From positions 1 through 6,291 of the IMG/VR virus record IMGVR_UViG_2585427751_000007: DNA of 6,291 nucleotides; one strand, written 5' to 3'. Shown one piece after another: positions 1 to 6,291 of this stretch. Made by a program: the position numbers and the translations under genes. Position 1 is the first letter of the stretch, and every line of letters starts with the position of its first letter. Source of the stretch: a virus (taxonomy: Duplodnaviria > Heunggongvirae > Uroviricota > Caudoviricetes). Below the pieces are notes generated by a model. It did no database searches and was not told the origin of the DNA. It saw only the letters and a program-made list of their open reading frames with translations.

Positions 1-267
1 ATGAGGGTATCCAGACAAGCATCGAATAATTTGTTTGTTCGAGAGGGGTGTGACTGGTCTGCTAAAGCGGTATATGCAGCCCTTGAAAACAAAGGCACAG
101 ACCTCCCTGAACTGGAAAGGGAGTTAGGATTAAAAAGCGGATCAATGCGCAATGTGTTTTACCGCCAGTGCCGTAAATACGAAGCCGCCATCGCCGAAAA
201 AATAGGGGTTGAACCTGCTGTAATCTGGCCCAGCAGATACCAGGTGGACGCCAGAGAAGTGGCTTGA
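1..267 (+). CDS. ner: Ner-like DNA-binding transcriptional regulator (Mu Ner / E. coli Nlp family)
   Basis: 88-aa ORF. The C-terminal motif ...GVEPAVIWPSRYQ and the preceding DW...helix-turn-helix-like segment match phage Mu Ner and E. coli Nlp as recalled from memory. It sits directly upstream of a MuA-like transposase gene, as in the Mu early operon. The ATG is at the window edge and the ORF has a ~10 aa N-terminal extension relative to Mu Ner, so the true start is uncertain. Confidence 0.8.
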   Translation: MRVSRQASNNLFVREGCDWSAKAVYAALENKGTDLPELERELGLKSGSMRNVFYRQCRKYEAAIAEKIGVEPAVIWPSRYQVDAREVA

Positions 268-277
268 TGGGGGATGT

Positions 278-1408
278 ATGTGGGTAACAGCAAAAGAATG
301 TGTTGGTCTTCCTGATTTACCAATGATGGAACATAACATTCGCCATCGACTCACAAAAGCAGCTGCGGGAAATGCAGCCATGTTACGCAAACGTAAGGGG
401 ACAAAAGCAATCGAATTTAATATCGATTGTTTGCCTTCTGGCGCGCAACAAGTATTGCGTGAACGTTATGCCCTTCAACTGATGACGCAAAAAGCTGATG
501 AATCACCGGCTCCGGTGGTGACAAAGGCCAGACGCTCATCTGCCGTGGTTGATGCGGTGGAGGCATATCGCGGATCACCACAACTGATGCTCGAACGCCT
601 CAATGCCCTGACTGAAAACCAGCGCCAGGTGGCTGATGCACGAATCGCGATCGTCAGCGAAGTTCTGAAAGTCGCGCAACAACCTGGTTTCAGCTGTGCG
701 AAGGCTATCCGGTTTATCGTTGACAACCTGGCACGTTCGCAACTGGACGAGCGCATTGTGGCAATGGTTGAGACGGCGAACGCCAAAAAGGGAAACAGCC
801 GTGCGTTGAGTGAAATCACGCTGAAACGCTGGATTGCGGCCTTTAACAAGGCACAGAACGCCGCTGAACGCCTGCTTTTACTGGCACCGGGTAAACGCCA
901 GGAAATAAAAGCCGAAGATATTAACTGGCTGCCCGAATTTCTGGCGCAGTATCGCCAGTCAAACGGCCGACCAATGACCGAGGCTTACGAGGATTTTGTT
1001 GCTGAATGGCAGCACCGGCACGCTGATGAGCCTTATATGCTCGATATCATGCCCTCTTATGACACCATTCGCCGCGCAATGAAGAAACTGCCGGAAGTGG
1101 TGAAACAAAAAGGCCGGGTAACTGGCAGTGAATACCGTCAGCTTGAGGGATTCACGCGCCGCGACTGGTCCAGAATGCCGGTGAATTATGTCTGGATTGG
1201 TGACGGTCACGGCATGAAGCTGAAATGCGCGCACCCGGTTCACGGGCGGCCATTCGCACCGGAAGTGACCTTTGTTATCGACGGTGGCACGCGCTTTGTG
1301 GTGGGCTGGAGCCTTGATCTGGCTGAAAATGTTTTCGCTGTAGCCGGTGCCATACAGCACGGCATTCGCCATCACGGCAAACCGTTTCTGTATTACTCGG
1401 ATACCGGG
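278..1408 (+). other. MuA-like transposase portion of the chimeric ORF (enhancer/end-binding region and partial RNase-H-like DDE core; catalytically incomplete)
   Basis: Residues 1-~377 of the 533-aa ORF align by eye with the MuA N-terminal half, including two of the three DDE residues. The third acidic residue and the C-terminal domain are absent. Confidence 0.65.
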
Positions 1409-1879
1409 ATCAAAACCCGTGCGGATGCGCACGACACCCTGAAAACGCAGGTTGCCAGCCTGTCGGCAGAACTGGAAACCGCAAAAGGCACACCAACTGG
1501 CGGCACTATTGATCTGACGAAATATGTGCCCGTTGAGACGTATAACACCCTGCGTACCGAATATGCCGCGCTGTCGGCACAACACGGCAGCACCACGCTG
1601 GAGCAGTTGCTGGATAAGGCCGAGTCCGAAGGACGCATTTTCAAAAGCGAACGCGGATACATGGAAGGACTCGGACAACAGATTGGCGTCGCGGCACTTT
1701 CTGCACAGCTTGACGCCCGCCAGCCGGTTGCGGCTCTGACCACTCTTCAGACCGACACCGTAACCGTGCCGGATAAAAAGACCGCCACCGCTGTGCTGTC
1801 GGCTGAAGATATCGCCGCCGCACGTCTGTTGGGTAAAACCGAAGCCGAGTTCCTGAAAATGAAAGAGGAAATGCAATAA
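278..1879 (+). CDS. Chimeric ORF: truncated MuA-family transposase (N-terminal DNA-binding domains plus DDE core through the second Asp) fused in frame to a phage scaffold-like C-terminal domain (gpI/gpZ-like)
   Basis: The N-terminus MWVTAKECVGLPDLP...KGTKAIEFN resembles the MuA N-terminus (ELWVSPKECANLPGLP...KGGKAIEYN, from memory). The catalytic-core motifs are VWIGDGHG (Asp codon 309, nt 1202-1204) and LYYSDTG (Asp codon 375, nt 1400-1402), a spacing of 66 residues against 67 for MuA D269-D336. After that there is no MuA-like segment and no Glu in a MuA-like context. The last ~150 aa are Ala/Leu/Glu/Thr-rich and coiled-coil-like, ending ...LSAEDIAAARLLGKTEAEFLKMKEEMQ, and the stop TAA overlaps the ATG of the major head gene (TAATG at 1877-1881). 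A GGGGGA Shine-Dalgarno-like sequence lies 3 nt upstream of the start. Confidence 0.7.
   Translation: MWVTAKECVGLPDLPMMEHNIRHRLTKAAAGNAAMLRKRKGTKAIEFNIDCLPSGAQQVLRERYALQLMTQKADESPAPVVTKARRSSAVVDAVEAYRGSPQLMLERLNALTENQRQVADARIAIVSEVLKVAQQPGFSCAKAIRFIVDNLARSQLDERIVAMVETANAKKGNSRALSEITLKRWIAAFNKAQNAAERLLLLAPGKRQEIKAEDINWLPEFLAQYRQSNGRPMTEAYEDFVAEWQHRHADEPYMLDIMPSYDTIRRAMKKLPEVVKQKGRVTGSEYRQLEGFTRRDWSRMPVNYVWIGDGHGMKLKCAHPVHGRPFAPEVTFVIDGGTRFVVGWSLDLAENVFAVAGAIQHGIRHHGKPFLYYSDTGIKTRADAHDTLKTQVASLSAELETAKGTPTGGTIDLTKYVPVETYNTLRTEYAALSAQHGSTTLEQLLDKAESEGRIFKSERGYMEGLGQQIGVAALSAQLDARQPVAALTTLQTDTVTVPDKKTATAVLSAEDIAAARLLGKTEAEFLKMKEEMQ
1409..1879 (+). other. Scaffold-like C-terminal domain (Mu gpI C-terminus / gpZ-like) of the chimeric ORF
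   Basis: Low-complexity, Ala/Glu/Leu-rich sequence with predicted coiled-coil character and an acidic C-terminus, placed immediately before the major head gene with stop/start overlap. This arrangement is typical of scaffold/protease genes in Mu-like phages. Boundary is approximate (within about 20 nt). Confidence 0.55.
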
Positions 1880-2826
1880 TGCCTACCCCGATTACACCGG
1901 CGATGATCACCGCCCTGATGACGGGCTACCGTTCTGATTTTCAGGCCGGGATGTCCATGGCTCCGTCGCAGTACCAGAAAATTGCGATGACCGTGCCGTC
2001 CACCTCGAAATCCAACACCTACGGCTGGCTGGGGCAGTTCCCGCAGTTCCGTGAGTGGATCGGCTCCCGCGTCATCGAGAAGATGAAAGCCTATGGCTAC
2101 GCCATCGTGAACAAAACCTTTGAAGGCACCGTTGCCATTAGCCGCGATGACTTTGAAGACGACAATCTCGGCATCTACTCCCCGTTATTCCAGGAAATGG
2201 GTCGTGCCGCTGCGGCACAACCGGATGAACTGGTCTTTGCTGCACTGCGTGATGGTCTGAATGCGGCCTGCTATGACGGCCAGAACTTCTTTGATACCGA
2301 ACACCCTGTTTACCCCAAAGTGGATGGCTCCGGTGATGCACAGATGGTCAGCAATATGTTTGTGGCAAAAACCGGCTCTGTCGGTGCACAGGCGGATTAC
2401 AGCGGCCCGGCCTGGTATCTGCTTGACTGCTCCCGCGCGGTAAAACCGCTGATTTATCAGGATCGCCGCAAAGCCGAACTGGTTGCCCAGACAAAAGTCG
2501 ATGAAGGCCGTGCGTTTACTGATAACGAGTTTGTGTTCGGTGCTTCCGCCCGTCGCAATGTGGGCTACGGCTTCTGGCAGATGGCCTACATGATGCAGTC
2601 ACCGCTGACGCTGGATGCGCTGTGGCACGGCTGGTCAGCCATGCGTGACTTTAAGGCTGACGGTGGCCGCAAACTCGGCATCAAACCCACCCATATTGTT
2701 GTCCCCACCTCGCTGGAAAAACAGGCGGTGCAGCTGCTGGAGCGCGAGCTGTTCGCAGACGGTAACGCCACAGTCTCTAACGAGATGAAGGGCAAGCTGG
2801 AGCTGGTTGTCGCGGATTATCTGTAA
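1879..2826 (+). CDS. T: Major head (capsid) subunit, Mu gpT-like
   Basis: 315-aa ORF of the right size and position, with an N-terminus (MPTPITPAMITALMTGYRSDFQAGM...) of the kind I associate with Mu-like gpT proteins. AGAGGA Shine-Dalgarno-like sequence at 1864-1869, 9 nt upstream of the ATG. Overlaps the upstream stop. Confidence 0.85.
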   Translation: MPTPITPAMITALMTGYRSDFQAGMSMAPSQYQKIAMTVPSTSKSNTYGWLGQFPQFREWIGSRVIEKMKAYGYAIVNKTFEGTVAISRDDFEDDNLGIYSPLFQEMGRAAAAQPDELVFAALRDGLNAACYDGQNFFDTEHPVYPKVDGSGDAQMVSNMFVAKTGSVGAQADYSGPAWYLLDCSRAVKPLIYQDRRKAELVAQTKVDEGRAFTDNEFVFGASARRNVGYGFWQMAYMMQSPLTLDALWHGWSAMRDFKADGGRKLGIKPTHIVVPTSLEKQAVQLLERELFADGNATVSNEMKGKLELVVADYL

Positions 2827-2833
2827 ACGGTGA

Positions 2834-2852
2834 GCCGGGCTTACGGCCCGGC
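2834..2852 (+). terminator. GC-rich stem-loop just downstream of the major head gene (7-bp stem GCCGGGC/GCCCGGC, 5-nt loop); possible attenuator or mRNA-stabilising hairpin
   Basis: The inverted repeat at 2834-2840 and 2846-2852 is seen directly in the sequence. No U-tract follows, so it is not a canonical intrinsic terminator. Confidence 0.3.
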
Positions 2853-2869
2853 CCCTGCGGAGGGCAAAT

Positions 2870-3229
2870 ATGAATGAACATCACACTGTGGCAGCAACAG
2901 ATGATTCAGGCCTTCAGGTCAGTGGTGACAGTCCTGTCACGGTACTGGCAGAAGTGCGTTGCAGTCGTACGCATTTTCGTCGTGCGGGGTTCCTGTTCAT
3001 GCGGGGACGCCAGCAGGTTGACGTCACCCCGGAGCAGCTTGCCCGACTGGAAGCGGAGCCATGCCTCACTGTACGAATACTACAGACGCCTGGTGATGAT
3101 GCGGGAGCCGTGGCGGGTGTGGTTCATGCAGAGACCGGTGCAGATTTAGCCGAAGCCGAAACCGTACAGGATGCTCCCCGGAAAAAGACCGGCAATAACG
3201 CCAGACAGGCGAAAAAGGCGCGCGCATGA
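2870..3229 (+). CDS. Small hypothetical protein in the gp35 position of Mu-like late operons (between major head and gp36-like genes)
   Basis: 119-aa ORF with a GGAGGG Shine-Dalgarno-like sequence at 2859-2864, 5 nt upstream of the ATG. Its stop overlaps the next start (ATGA at 3226-3229), indicating translational coupling. Strongly basic C-terminal tail (RKKTGNNARQAKKARA). Function not recognised. Confidence 0.6.
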   Translation: MNEHHTVAATDDSGLQVSGDSPVTVLAEVRCSRTHFRRAGFLFMRGRQQVDVTPEQLARLEAEPCLTVRILQTPGDDAGAVAGVVHAETGADLAEAETVQDAPRKKTGNNARQAKKARA

Positions 3230-3645
3230 ATTACGCCACCGAAACCGATATGCGGGCACGTTACCGCGAGGATTTGCTCAGGCCATTACTGGCCGTGCCC
3301 CGTTCGGATGAACCGGACACGCGCAAGCTGAACCGGGCACTGACGGACGCGTCTGCCCTTATCGACAGCTATCTGTCTTCCCGTTACACGCTGCCGCTGG
3401 CGGTGGTTCCGGCGGTCCTTGTTCAGCATTGCTGCACGATTGCCTTTTATTACCTGTGCGATCAGCGGGCATCCGATCAGGCGCGTGACCGTTACCGTGA
3501 GGCGCTGGCCTGGCTGAAAGATGTCATGAACGGTAACGTGCCGGTCGGCGTGGATACAGACGGTGCGGCCCCTGAATCCGGGGATTTACCGCAGGTGCAG
3601 TCTGATGCGGCGGTGTTCGGGCGCAACCAGAAGGGCTTTATATGA
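3226..3645 (+). CDS. Mu gp36-like head-tail joining/neck protein (DUF1320 family)
   Basis: 139-aa ORF. The segment ...ALTDASALIDSYLSSRYTLPLAVVPAVLVQHCCTIAFYYLCD...YREALAWLKDV... matches the conserved pattern of the DUF1320 / Mu gp36 family as recalled. Correct size and position. ATGA overlap with the next gene. Confidence 0.8.
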   Translation: MNYATETDMRARYREDLLRPLLAVPRSDEPDTRKLNRALTDASALIDSYLSSRYTLPLAVVPAVLVQHCCTIAFYYLCDQRASDQARDRYREALAWLKDVMNGNVPVGVDTDGAAPESGDLPQVQSDAAVFGRNQKGFI

Positions 3646-4205
3646 TTACGGAAACCGAGCAGGCGTACATCGCCCGTATCCGTGAGTATTTCGGGAATGA
3701 ACTGGTGTCTGTTGACACACATCCCGGCGACTGGAGCGACAGCGTACTGCGCACCATGCTGATTAACGCCCCGGCTATCTATGTTGCCTGGCTGGGTGCC
3801 GGTGAAGGGCGTACCCGTGGGCGTCTGGTCAGTCACTGGGTGTTCTACGTCATCGGCGACATGCTCAATGGCCGTGAGGTCAGCCGTCCCGGGCTTTATC
3901 AGATTGTGGCCCGCCTGATTACCGTGCTGGACGGCTTCAGAGCAGAAAAAACCTCACCGCTTTACTTTGAAAAGGCGGTCAACGGTTACACCGAAACGCA
4001 GGCAGGCAGCGGTGCCGTGATGTACGCCCTGTATTTCTCATGCGAGGAAATGATCGACCCGCTGACGGATATCAGCTCGCTGGATGATTTCCTGCGCCAT
4101 TACGAAACCTTTACCGAACCGGAAGGCACGCCGGAATTTAAGGCACACATCCGTCTGCCTGGTGCAACTGCCGCCGGTGAAAACGCCGGACTGTCAGAGG
4201 AATAA
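3642..4205 (+). CDS. Mu gp37-like virion protein (DUF1834 family)
   Basis: 187-aa ORF of the right size and position for the gp37-like family. AAGGG Shine-Dalgarno-like sequence 6 nt upstream of the ATG. Start overlaps the upstream stop. Confidence 0.75.
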   Translation: MITETEQAYIARIREYFGNELVSVDTHPGDWSDSVLRTMLINAPAIYVAWLGAGEGRTRGRLVSHWVFYVIGDMLNGREVSRPGLYQIVARLITVLDGFRAEKTSPLYFEKAVNGYTETQAGSGAVMYALYFSCEEMIDPLTDISSLDDFLRHYETFTEPEGTPEFKAHIRLPGATAAGENAGLSEE

Positions 4206-4208
4206 CAG

Positions 4209-4487
4209 ATGACAACCATTTTTATTAAACCTGCGCCGGGATGCCTGATCCGCGATCCCGACACGATGACTCCGCTCTCTCAGGACGGGGAAGAGAAACC
4301 CTTCACTCCGTTCTGGTGCCGCCGTCTTAATGATGGCGACGTCATTGTGGTGGATAAAACGGCGGAGCCTGCCCCGGCTGCCACAACTGCTAATACCGGC
4401 GCGGCGGCAAAACCAGCGGGAGCGGTAGCAGAAAAAACTGCGGCGGTGGCTGAAAAAACCGCAGCATCAGATAAGGGGACGTCCTGA
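4209..4487 (+). CDS. Mu gp38-like small protein (DUF2635 family) with an Ala-rich repetitive C-terminal tail
   Basis: 92-aa ORF. The N-terminus MTTIFIKPAPGCLIRDPDTMTPL...FWCRRLNDGDVIVV matches the gp38-like pattern as recalled. AGAGGAA Shine-Dalgarno-like sequence at 4196-4202. Its stop overlaps the sheath start (TGATG at 4485-4489). Confidence 0.75.
   Translation: MTTIFIKPAPGCLIRDPDTMTPLSQDGEEKPFTPFWCRRLNDGDVIVVDKTAEPAPAATTANTGAAAKPAGAVAEKTAAVAEKTAASDKGTS
4422..4463 (+). repeat. Imperfect 21-bp tandem duplication (gcggtagcagaaaaaactgcg / gcggtggctgaaaaaaccgca) encoding AVAEKTA-AVAEKTA
   Basis: Direct tandem repeat seen in the sequence inside the C-terminal tail of the gp38-like ORF. Confidence 0.5.
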
Positions 4488-6058
4488 TGATTAACTTTGA
4501 TTATATCGGCGATAACAATCGCATTCCGCTGGTACAGATTGAAATCAATAATTCAATGGCCGTGACCGGCACTCCACCACAGCGTCAGGCGGTACTGTTG
4601 TTTGGTCAGGCTGCAATGAAAGACACTACCATTCAGGGGCGCGGTCAGCTTGATGTACCAGTACGTATTACCCGAGCTTCACAAGCAAGAGAACTCTGGG
4701 GGCGAGGTTCCATGATTGCACTGATGGTAGAGGAATTTATCGCCATTAACCCTGACACAGAGTTATATGCCATTGCACAGGGGGCTGGAACAGGTCAGTC
4801 CAGGGCATGCGTGATGAATATCATTGGAACAGCATTGGCAGACGGGGTGTTAAGTGTTTACATCGGCGGTCGCCGTTACCTCCTGCCCGTCAGTAAGGGG
4901 AAAAAAGGTAAAGAGCTTGTGGAAGAGCTGGCTAAGGTCATTAACGCTGACACTGATGCGCCATTCACTGCTATCGCAGCTGAAGTCAGTGGTGATAATG
5001 CTGAAGGACTTAAAGGCAGCATGGGGGTTAACGCCCGCTTTATCGGTGAATGCTCAGCTCATGATTTACGGGTGAACTATTATGACGGTGAAACTACACC
5101 GGCCGGTCTTACGCTGGAGCTCGTCGCGCCAACACAGAAGGCAACAAACCCCGATATCACCCGTAGCGTCTCAGGGATGGGGAATCGTCAGTACAACTAC
5201 ATCGTCATGCCCTATAAGGATGCGGCAAATCTCAAAATTCTGGCGGATGAACTGCTGAAACGCTGGGGACCGGTAAAAATGTCGGACGGTATGGTCTGGA
5301 TGGCGCATACCGGCACCTTCGGTACGGCAACCAGTTTTGGTGAATCCCGTAATGACTTCCTGTTTACCTGCACTTCTATTCCTAAAGCACCAGAGCCGGA
5401 TTATGTCTGGGCGGCCTCCATTTGTGCGGTCTGTGCGCCCTCCCTGTCAACGGATCCGGCCCGACCATTACAGACACTGGCGCTGCCTGCCCGTATGGCA
5501 CCTGAAGCACCGGCTCGTCTGACGCGGGAAGAGCGAAACAGCCTGCTTTATACCGGCATGTCCACGGTGACCGTTGCGGCCGCTGATGTGGTGCAGATTG
5601 AACGTCAGGTGACGATGTACCGTCAGAATGCATACGGCGAAAGCGATCCCAGCTATCTGGATGTAGAAACCATCTACACCCTGTCATATCTGCGTTATTC
5701 CCTGCGCACCTTTATCACGCAGCGTTTCCCGCGCCACAAACTGGCCGATAACGGTACTCCCGTCCGGCCCGGTCAGAATATCGTGACGCCGGAGATTATG
5801 ACGCTCCAGCTGATTGCACTGGGGGAAGAATGGGTGGAACTCGGGCTGGTCGAAAATCTGGACACCTTTAAAAAGAATCTGCTCGTGGAGCGCAACACAA
5901 AAGACCGTAACCGTCTGGATGTGATGTGTACACCGGATCTGCACGGCAGCGTGCCCTGCGTGAAATGCGCCGTGCGATTGCCCGTTCAGAACGGTTTTCT
6001 GCCACCGTGCGTGGCTGGTTCCGGGATGATGGCCGGTTATGGGATGTCAATCTGCTGA
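4487..6058 (+). CDS. L: Contractile tail sheath protein (Mu gpL-like); the C-terminal ~38 codons look like out-of-frame read-through into a neighbouring gene fragment
   Basis: 523-aa ORF of sheath size and position, sheath-like through ...NLLVERNTKDRNRLDVMCTPDL. AAGGGGA Shine-Dalgarno-like sequence at 4473-4479. The final segment HGSVPCVKCAVRLPVQNGFLPPCVAGSGMMAGYGMSIC is Cys/Pro/Gly-rich and atypical, while the -1 frame over the same DNA gives a well-formed protein sequence. Confidence 0.8.
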   Translation: MINFDYIGDNNRIPLVQIEINNSMAVTGTPPQRQAVLLFGQAAMKDTTIQGRGQLDVPVRITRASQARELWGRGSMIALMVEEFIAINPDTELYAIAQGAGTGQSRACVMNIIGTALADGVLSVYIGGRRYLLPVSKGKKGKELVEELAKVINADTDAPFTAIAAEVSGDNAEGLKGSMGVNARFIGECSAHDLRVNYYDGETTPAGLTLELVAPTQKATNPDITRSVSGMGNRQYNYIVMPYKDAANLKILADELLKRWGPVKMSDGMVWMAHTGTFGTATSFGESRNDFLFTCTSIPKAPEPDYVWAASICAVCAPSLSTDPARPLQTLALPARMAPEAPARLTREERNSLLYTGMSTVTVAAADVVQIERQVTMYRQNAYGESDPSYLDVETIYTLSYLRYSLRTFITQRFPRHKLADNGTPVRPGQNIVTPEIMTLQLIALGEEWVELGLVENLDTFKKNLLVERNTKDRNRLDVMCTPDLHGSVPCVKCAVRLPVQNGFLPPCVAGSGMMAGYGMSIC

Positions 6059-6291
6059 CCGGTGTTTCAGCCCTGCGTTTCGGTATAGAACAGACTGAAC
6101 TGCTGGTCTGTCAGGTGGAGTTTTTACTTGATGAGCATAACGGGGAAGTCACCCGGCTGGTACTGGCACCGCGTGACGGCTTTATCGTTCCGGCAGAGCC
6201 GGACAGTAAGGGCCGGGGTGGTTCCGGTGACGATGTTGATGCCTTTATTCGCCAGCAGATGAAAAAACAGGGGATCAGCTTTGATGAATGA
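5926..6291 (+). pseudogene. C-terminal fragment (~115 aa) of a baseplate hub protein of the gpD family (P2 gpD / Mu gpP-like), lacking its N-terminal ~2/3 and its own start
   Basis: The frame is open from nt 5911, with the first GTG at 5926 and an ATG at 5965. The translation ...RRAIARSERFSATVRGW...VNLLTGVSALRFGIEQTELLVCQVEFLLDEHNGEVTRLVLAP... resembles the C-terminal region of P2 gpD-like hub proteins as recalled from memory. It overlaps the sheath ORF by ~130 nt in the -1 frame and has no Shine-Dalgarno sequence. Family assignment is tentative. Confidence 0.45.

What the first reader, a model, noticed from the sequence alone, without database searches (positions are those of the whole stretch)
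278..1410. The catalytically incomplete transposase keeps its DNA-binding N-terminal domains and could act as a transposition inhibitor
The retained region corresponds to the MuA end- and enhancer-binding domains plus an incomplete DDE core (two Asp, no third acidic residue in context). Truncated transposases that keep DNA-binding or multimerisation domains are established inhibitors in other systems (Tn5 Inh, IS1 InsA, P-element KP). A protein like this could bind the ends of an incoming Mu-like phage and poison transpososome assembly, acting as a superinfection-exclusion factor. This is a hypothesis, not something the sequence demonstrates.
Basis: inference. Interest (0 to 1): 0.45.

Follow-up and report, generated by a model that had tools for sequence, protein, structure and literature searches.

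The report
Truncated Mu transposase at deletion hotspot
The stretch is the front 375 codons of a Mu-type phage transposase gene, left behind when a 16.5-kb deletion fused it in frame to a head-scaffold gene; it is most likely a dead remnant, but the same nucleotide-exact breakpoint has arisen independently at least nine times in E. coli and Salmonella, which is unexplained.

Summary
Window 278-1402 encodes residues 1-375 of a Mu-type (Sp18-like) transposase. It keeps the enhancer- and end-binding helical domains and the first two catalytic Asp (D309 = MuA D269; D375 = MuA D336). The catalytic Glu and everything downstream are gone. At nt 1402/1403 the gene is joined in frame to the last 158 codons of the protease/scaffold gene I.

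The window is a doubly deleted prophage in E. coli 4-203-08_S3_C1. This exact fusion occurs only in 2-3 sibling assemblies and in none of 5,426 complete E. coli genomes. It sits behind an intact repressor gene and the early promoter, and it matches no defence family. The inhibitor idea is mechanistically plausible, but nothing here supports it; an inert deletion scar is more likely.

One finding was unexpected. Eight other prophages, with different immunity types, chromosomal sites and species, break at exactly the same nucleotide (...TCGGATA^A). Their right partners differ: mor, DUF2730, tape measure, baseplate J, DUF6645, host lsrC. Junction microhomology is 2-7 bp. The only GGATAA in a true Mu A gene is also a deletion breakpoint. 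So GGATA^A is a sequence-specific deletion hotspot of unknown cause.

The parts
1..267 (+). ner-like early regulator gene (88 aa). It is the first gene of the early operon and ends 10 nt before the chimeric ORF.
   Evidence: Pfam HTH_35 E 1.7e-20. Same gene order c / ner / A in intact relatives.
278..1879 (+). Chimeric ORF of 533 aa: transposase residues 1-375 fused in frame to protease/scaffold residues about 221-377. A GGGGGA Shine-Dalgarno lies 5 nt upstream.
   Evidence: The exact protein is on only 2 contigs / 3 samples.
278..487 (+). MuA I-alpha-like winged-helix domain (residues 1 to about 70), the enhancer/operator-binding type.
   Evidence: phmmer to 1TNS E 0.011. Profile to 1TNS 1.2e-9 and to Mu c repressor 1G4D 3.6e-4. 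pLDDT 80-85.
554..1105 (+). Helical domains (residues about 93-276) that correspond to the MuA I-beta/I-gamma end-binding domains.
   Evidence: hhalign to genuine MuA. pLDDT 70-91. Foldseek best hits 4FCY_A/B, E 1e-5, probability 1.0.
1175..1402 (+). First part of the DDE (RNase-H-like) core only. D309 is at 1202-1204 (= MuA D269) and D375 at 1400-1402 (= MuA D336). The Glu is missing.
   Evidence: Low model confidence (pLDDT 35-57) for residues 280-375.
1391..1404 (+). Hotspot motif TATTACTCGGATA^; the deletion junction is the shared TA at 1402-1403.
   Evidence: Alignment with the intact A and I genes. The same left breakpoint occurs in L004-L007, L008, L009, L012, L069 and L072, and contigs end there in L013 and L073.
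1403..1879 (+). C-terminal 158 codons of the Mu-like I protease/scaffold gene, in its native frame. The stop overlaps the start of the major head gene T.
   Evidence: Pfam Mu-like_Pro 384-527. 99.7% DNA identity to the intact prophage L001 from nt 1402 on. PHROG 328.
5931..5941 (+). Second deletion junction of the same prophage: tail sheath joined to baseplate gpP, about 5.2 kb lost.
   Evidence: TG microhomology inside an imperfect repeat of about 11 nt.

Best explanation
Window 278-1410 is the surviving 5' part of the transposase gene of a Mu-like (Sp18-type) transposable prophage inserted next to nlpE in E. coli 4-203-08_S3_C1. Shown: an illegitimate, microhomology-mediated deletion of about 16.5 kb removed the rest of A, B, the semi-essential early genes, mor, the lysis genes, terminase, portal and the 5' part of I. 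It joined ...TCGGATA (the codon of the second catalytic Asp) to gene I, by chance in frame. A second deletion removed about 5.2 kb of tail genes. Shown: the left breakpoint is not random. GGATA^A is a sequence-specific hotspot, used independently in at least nine prophages with different downstream partners that share 2-7 bp of microhomology. Inferred: this pattern fits a fixed 3' end ...GGATA-3' annealing and priming elsewhere (template switch or end joining). Inferred: cells carrying such deletions persist because the lethal transposition-replication functions are gone while repressor and immunity stay. Inferred: the chimeric protein is a by-product. If made at the low basal level of the early promoter, it could bind the phage ends and operator but cannot cut DNA or build a transpososome. 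Any interference with related phages would be incidental and redundant with the repressor.
For: The window splits into three blocks that match distant parts of intact prophages: 1-1407, 1402-5941 and 5931-6291. The junction sequence was resolved. The source contig shows nlpE, an intact 203-aa repressor, ner and then the fusion. The left arm differs from the intact L002 at only about 20 of 2,528 nt. A Pe-like promoter (10 of 12 matches) lies upstream of ner. No complete E. coli genome carries this junction: 0 of 5,426, while 239 of 239 records are intact across the site. The same left breakpoint is seen joined to mor (L004-7), host lsrC (L008), DUF2730 (L009), DUF6645 (L012), tape measure (L069) and baseplate J in Salmonella (L072). 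These prophages sit at different chromosomal sites and carry four repressor types. Native partner sequences give microhomologies TA, TA, TAA, GGATA, TAAT and CGGATAA. All 220 retrieved proteins were compared systematically with intact A: six deletion-type lesions lie at the site and two elsewhere. Among 57 DNA loci the only deletion is at the site. The only GGATAA in a true Mu A gene is also a breakpoint (L076). The fusion has no PADLOC match.
Against: The cause of the hotspot is unknown, so the 'fixed 3' end' step is inference. Four of the seven junctions with a known partner are in-frame fusions (expected one third), but in-frame cases are easier to detect. Recurrence of one truncated product is also what selection for that product would give. 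No expression or binding data exist. Truncated forms were seen only in short-read or metagenome assemblies, none in complete genomes, although five different assembly pipelines agree.
Confidence: 0.7

Rival explanations
1. The truncated transposase is a selected trans-dominant inhibitor. A'(1-375) occupies the end sites and enhancer of incoming or co-resident Mu-like phages and blocks transpososome assembly. The same truncation recurs because it is the useful product.
For: The DNA-binding domains are intact and confidently modelled. The N-terminal domain is of the same type as the Mu c repressor, which binds Mu ends and inhibits transposition (PMC3820752 and the papers it cites). Basal Pe transcription occurs in Mu lysogens (PMC3820752). 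The same 375-residue fragment arose at least eight more times. Precedents are Tn5 Inh, IS1 InsA and the P-element KP repressor (own knowledge).
Against: Selection does not explain nucleotide-exact junctions, or the same GGATA^A motif being used at a different codon (101) in Mu A. The C-terminal partners are arbitrary and two events are out of frame. Each event is confined to a few samples. An intact repressor is already present. There is no defence-family match. The half core is probably unfolded.
Confidence: 0.12
2. The truncated copies were not made by later decay in place. They arose during Mu-type replicative transposition or integration: synthesis starting at the left end aborts at GGATA^A, 2,528 nt in, and switches template. 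This lays down a new, already defective copy at the new target.
For: Every event sits at a different chromosomal site with a normal left end. In L008 the transposase fragment is joined to host lsrC only 548 bp beyond the left-end insertion point in lsrA, which is easier to explain by a switch onto nearby target DNA than by a 35-kb deletion. L012 keeps the right end and a matching 4-5 bp target duplication. By the K-12 map (own knowledge), the orientation relative to chromosome replication differs between the window and L004, which argues against ordinary fork slippage.
Against: No intact sister copy can be shown in the same genomes. Nothing identifies why synthesis would stop at this motif. 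Template switches over 7-35 kb are unusual.
Confidence: 0.25
3. Assembly or library artefact, or a single ancestral event spread by descent; there is no real recurrent breakpoint.
For: All truncated examples come from short-read or metagenome assemblies. None is in the complete genomes.
Against: Microhomology of 2-7 bp is far below any assembler's k-mer. The junctions come from five pipelines (NCBI drafts, Logan, MEGAHIT, IMG and SKESA contig ends). The window contig recurs in three samples. The left arms differ by up to 33% in protein sequence, and the flanks and partners all differ.
Confidence: 0.03

Closest known systems
Bacteriophage Mu transposase MuA (PDB 4FCY, 1BCO, 1TNS)
   Same: Same domain order: I-alpha winged helix, I-beta/I-gamma end-binding domains, then a DDE core. 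D309 and D375 align with D269 and D336. The intact relatives also carry Mu-transpos_C.
   Different: Only about 15% identity to MuA. The window copy stops at the second Asp, so it lacks E392, domain II-beta and domain III. It cannot be an active transposase.
Mu repressor c, an N-terminal homologue of MuA that binds operators and Mu ends and inhibits transposition
   Same: It shares the I-alpha-type DNA-binding domain (1G4D hit; PHROG 'transcriptional repressor' 1.6e-6). It is the natural precedent for a non-catalytic MuA-like DNA binder that blocks transposition (PMC3820752).
   Different: c is a dedicated gene with its own promoter and an oligomerisation region. In this prophage the repressor is a different, HTH_3/CI-type protein. 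A' is a deletion product expressed only from the repressed early promoter.
Truncated-transposase inhibitors: Tn5 Inh, IS1 InsA, P-element KP (own knowledge)
   Same: A non-catalytic fragment that keeps DNA-binding or multimerisation parts.
   Different: Those are regular products of the element (alternative start, no frameshift, internal deletion that spreads). Here there is no evidence of regular production, conservation or activity.
'Grounded' defective prophages, and survivors of Mu induction that carry early-region lesions (PMC6379469; Mu X mutants, own knowledge)
   Same: Loss of the lethal replication-transposition functions with retention of repressor and immunity. The window prophage and L004 each carry a second internal deletion.
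   Different: The left breakpoint is nucleotide-exact and motif-bound (GGATA^A) across lineages. I did not find this described for Mu-like prophages.
Short-homology illegitimate recombination hotspots in E. coli, such as gyrase- or REP-associated deletions (own knowledge)
   Same: RecA-independent-looking junctions with 2-7 bp microhomology. CGGATAA also resembles the REP core CCGGATAAG (own knowledge).
   Different: Here one partner is fixed and the others vary. No gyrase, REP hairpin or other known signal could be shown at the site.

Membership tests
Mu-type DDE transposase (MuA family) | N-terminal I-alpha winged-helix DNA-binding domain | tested here: met
   1TNS profile E 1.2e-9; Pfam HTH_Tnp_Mu_1.
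Mu-type DDE transposase (MuA family) | I-beta/I-gamma end-binding domains | tested here: met
   hhalign to genuine MuA over these regions. The AF2 model's best PDB hits are 4FCY_A/B. There is no direct Pfam HTH_Tnp_Mu_2 hit.
Mu-type DDE transposase (MuA family) | Complete D-D-E catalytic triad | tested here: not met
   D309 and D375 are present. The Glu (GIIERLN in intact L002) is deleted.
Mu-type DDE transposase (MuA family) | Domain II-beta (Mu-transpos_C) and domain III (assembly, MuB/ClpX contact) | tested here: not met
   Present in the intact relative (Pfam PF09299, 1.5e-17) and absent from the window ORF.
Element-encoded truncated-transposase inhibitors (Tn5 Inh / IS1 InsA type) | Retains the DNA-binding or multimerisation module without catalysis | tested here: met
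Element-encoded truncated-transposase inhibitors (Tn5 Inh / IS1 InsA type) | Regular, conserved product of functional element copies | tested here: not met
   Intact elements encode the full gene: 239 of 239 complete-genome records and 56 of 57 other loci. The truncated forms are deletion products with arbitrary tails.
Element-encoded truncated-transposase inhibitors (Tn5 Inh / IS1 InsA type) | Demonstrated inhibition of transposition | not testable with these tools
   Needs expression, plating, transposition and EMSA assays.
Mu gpI protease/scaffold | N-terminal protease domain | tested here: not met
   Only profile positions 198-330 of 330 are present; residues 1 to about 220 of I are deleted.
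Known anti-phage defence proteins (PADLOC-DB) | Match to a defence-system model | tested here: not met
   0 families at E <= 0.01 for the fusion and for ner.

The most novel reading that the evidence does not exclude
GGATA^A(C/T) marks a site-specific DNA break or priming event that repeatedly turns Mu-like prophages into grounded, immunity-proficient remnants. The agent could be the transposase itself, a topoisomerase, or another sequence-specific enzyme acting during transposition-replication. Every remnant encodes the same DNA-binding transposase fragment A'(1-375), and that fragment may in addition be kept because it interferes with related transposable phages.
Probability: 0.2. Interest if true: 0.8.

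Novelty: new variant of a known kind. Interest (0 to 1): 0.5.

Why it matters
As a single locus this is ordinary prophage decay, and the inhibitor idea remains an untested possibility. The wider pattern is more interesting. A motif-bound, nucleotide-exact deletion breakpoint inside the transposase gene recurs across E. coli and Salmonella Mu-like prophages of different immunity types, and again at the only GGATAA of a true Mu A gene. This suggests an unrecognised sequence-specific step in how transposable prophages become inactivated. That bears on prophage domestication, on the stability of Mu-based genetic tools, and on illegitimate-recombination mechanisms. It can be tested directly by sequencing survivors of induction and by synonymous mutation of the motif.

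Tried and rejected
1. Pseudo transposon end. The real ends were defined (left T(G/A)TAACCAGGTGAATCATTTGATACCG..., right ...CGGTATCAAAAAAATCGCCGCGCTATA). The A site shares only the terminal ATA and has no end-site motif at the right distance. Rejected.

2. Gin-type invertase. The phage's gix sites (L001 31280-31306 and 32597-32622) share GATAACG with the A site. However, the crossover centre would lie 3-4 nt to the right, and the second half-site is mis-spaced. Rejected.

3. Hairpin or cruciform at the site. DNA folds are not better than shuffles (z -0.4 to -1.4).

4. IS insertion plus excision. No IS sequence occurs at any junction, and none of the 57 loci carries an insertion. Contig ends at the site (L013, L073) leave room for a repeat or a branch there.

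5. Assembly artefact. See the rival explanations.

6. A double-strand break with both sides used. A search with the C-terminal half of A found no reciprocal X|NGSGE junction among 100 clusters. Selection against loss of the repressor could also explain this.

7. Post-deletion selection. The window and L004 A' differ by 15 synonymous and 0 non-synonymous changes. This reflects the intact ancestors, so it has no power.

8. Literature. Searches for truncated MuA inhibitors and for such a hotspot found nothing specific. The older Bétermier/Chandler papers on C-terminal deletions of MuA are not in the library.

9. Scans of GTDB representative genomes found no copy of the site at all.

Full report
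**What the window is**

The 6,291-nt window lies near the end of contig JOQJ01000001.1 of E. coli 4-203-08_S3_C1 (GCA_000714025.1). It reads ner (1-267), a 533-aa ORF (278-1879), major head protein T, four head/tail-completion genes, a tail sheath gene and the 3' end of baseplate gene P.

Against 5,426 complete E. coli genomes it falls into three blocks. Nt 1-1407 match the ner-A region of intact Mu-like prophages at about 98-99%. Nt 1402-5941 match the I-to-sheath region at up to 99.7%. Nt 5931-6291 match gene P. No complete genome has the blocks adjacent.

In an intact relative (L001) the first two blocks are 16.5 kb apart and the last two 5.2 kb apart. The window is therefore a Mu-like (Sp18-type) prophage with two internal deletions.

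**Checking the observation**

Residues 1-375 of the ORF differ by a single residue (H/Y) from the first 375 residues of an intact 696-aa transposase (L002). At nt 1402/1403 the A sequence ...TCGGATA|ACGG is replaced by ...CCCTTA|CCGGG of gene I, with TA shared. The reading frame of I is kept, so the ORF ends with the last 158 residues of the protease/scaffold protein.

The family is remote from canonical MuA (about 15% identity). Even so, a 20-sequence profile aligns to a genuine MuA found here (L011) with probability 97.7%, E 1.7e-12. That alignment places D309 on D269 and D375 on D336. A profile search of the PDB agrees and also matches MuA I-alpha and the Mu c repressor.

The Glu of the triad, the Mu-transpos_C domain and the C-terminal region are present in the intact protein and absent here.

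An AF2 model of residues 1-375 is confident for the helical N-terminal domains (pLDDT about 80-90). It is poor for residues 280-375, the orphan half of the RNase-H fold. Its best PDB matches are the two MuA chains of the Mu transpososome, followed by TnsB.

**Context relevant to function**

Upstream in the source contig lie nlpE, the phage left end, an intact 203-aa HTH_3/CI-type repressor gene on the opposite strand, an operator region with a good sigma-70-like promoter, and ner. This left arm differs from an intact phage at only about 20 of 2,528 nt.

The fusion is thus the second gene of the repressor-controlled early operon. In Mu proper that operon is transcribed at a low basal level in lysogens (PMC3820752).

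The exact fusion protein occurs on two contigs from two or three sibling isolates only. It has no PADLOC match. These facts show no sign of a selected function, and the repressor already gives immunity.

**The unexpected part**

A search of 5.8 billion proteins with residues 1-375 returned other proteins that switch to foreign sequence after exactly ...KPF(L/I)YYSD. Their contigs and a DNA-pattern scan gave these independent junctions. All follow ...TATTACTCGGATA:

| Locus | Source or site | Sequence after the break | Partner |
|---|---|---|---|
| window / L003 | next to nlpE | CCGGG | gene I |
| L004-L007 | yedD/amyA site, four samples | TGGCT | start codon of mor |
| L008 | inserted in lsrA | AATGG | host lsrC, 548 bp of host DNA lost |
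| L009 | different chromosomal site | TCAGC | DUF2730 gene |
| L012 | between ydhL and ydhF, right end intact | ATCAG | DUF6645 gene |
| L069 | IMG/VR | AGCAA | tape measure gene |
| L072 | Salmonella | CCCGT | baseplate J |

Two further assemblies have contigs that stop at ...TCGGATAA (L013, L073).

The left arms belong to at least four immunity types, and their transposase fragments are as little as 67% identical. The events are therefore independent.

Native partner sequences show microhomology of 2-7 bp ending at the junction: TA, TA, TAA, GGATA, TAAT and CGGATAA. The imperfect similarity often extends to CGGATA.

**How dominant the site is**

All 220 proteins retrieved were compared with intact A. 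Six deletion-type lesions lie at this site and two elsewhere. Among 57 DNA loci carrying the site, 56 are intact across it. The other A-gene lesions in those loci are one nonsense and two frameshift mutations.

No reciprocal junction that keeps the right side of the site was found.

In true Mu/D108-type A genes, the only GGATAA (codons 100-102, TGG GAT AAC) is also a deletion breakpoint: TGGGATA|GCTGG, joined to baseplate J (L076). A second site there, CCGTGAA^ACAG, is used twice with different partners (L074, L075).

The signal is therefore a DNA motif, GGATA^A, and not a property of the protein.

**Mechanism**

Shown:
- deletion junctions with a fixed left end
- variable right partners, all downstream
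- short terminal microhomology

Inferred: a defined 3' end ...GGATA-3' anneals to microhomology and primes synthesis, or is joined. The products survive because A, B and the other lethal early functions are lost while repressor and immunity remain.

Where the end comes from is unknown. A pseudo transposon end, the Gin-type invertase, a hairpin, an IS element and assembly error were tested and found unlikely.

L008 and L012 hint that the event may happen during transposition-replication rather than by later decay. In L008 the junction to host DNA lies 548 bp from the insertion point. In L012 both ends and the target duplication are intact. The prophage orientations relative to chromosome replication also differ (K-12 map, own knowledge).

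**Verdict**

The inhibitor hypothesis is mechanistically reasonable, and the closest natural precedent is the Mu repressor, which binds Mu ends. It is unsupported here, and I rate it at about 0.12 against about 0.7 for an inert deletion scar.

The novel element is the GGATA^A hotspot. It deserves experimental follow-up and raises the interest of an otherwise ordinary prophage remnant.

Noticed in passing
window 5931-5941 (sheath ORF 4487-6058; gpP fragment 5926-6291): There is a second internal deletion of about 5.2 kb that joins the tail sheath gene to the fourth domain of baseplate gpP. The junction is TG inside an imperfect repeat of about 11 nt (ACACCGGATCTG / CACCGGTG). The source contig ends 71 nt after the window.
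   Followed up: partly
L076 5280-5310 (true Mu/D108-type A gene, E. coli GCA_012617725.1): The only GGATAA in a genuine Mu A gene (codons W100-D101-N102) is also a deletion breakpoint: TGGGATA|GCTGG, fused to baseplate J. So the hotspot follows the DNA motif, not the catalytic Asp codon.
   Followed up: partly
L074 6351-6400 and L075 6351-6400 (true Mu-type A genes): A second recurrent breakpoint in Mu A, ...GGCCGTGAA^ACAG, is joined to two different places in the baseplate J/gp48 region. The intact sequence there, AACAGAAATGTGC, fits the EcoKI recognition pattern AAC(N6)GTGC (own knowledge). This may be coincidence.
   Followed up: no
L072, L074, L075, L076: Baseplate gene J (gp47) is the right-hand partner in four of the twelve deletions catalogued (nine in Sp18-type and three in true Mu-type A genes), at different positions within J.
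   Followed up: no
L003 9590-9700 (operator region upstream of the window): The c-ner intergenic region carries repeated half-sites CGATAA(C/T), for example AAATCGATAACCGATTTTGATTATCGGTT. They resemble the hotspot CGGATAA(C/T). In the L008/L009 subtype the left end itself contains TTCAAGATAACCGGG (L008 about 6790-6830). The relevance is unknown, because the hotspot is shared by phages with different repressors.
   Followed up: no
L012 6725-6745 and 11875-11890; L001 about 37770 with L014 about 1025: In this phage family the right end terminates in ...GCGCTATA and the left end starts T(G/A)TAACC. The flanks suggest a target duplication of 4-5 bp (CTAA(T), CGTG). That means a terminal TA instead of Mu's CA on at least one end.
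   Followed up: partly
L004 14806-14818: The A'-mor prophage also carries a second deletion (portal to the N/DNA-circularisation region). The junction reads CCCTGGATAAGTGA, so GGATAA sits at that junction too.
   Followed up: no
P0117 (Logan, 518 aa): There is an in-frame internal deletion within the transposase (residue 143 joined to about 322). It keeps the I-alpha domain and the whole catalytic and C-terminal part, so it is a different kind of lesion at a different site.
   Followed up: no
window 278-1402 compared with L004 7513-8637: The two A' fragments encode identical proteins but differ at 15 synonymous sites. The window and L004 remnants therefore derive from distinct phage lineages whose transposases were under purifying selection before the deletions.
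   Followed up: yes
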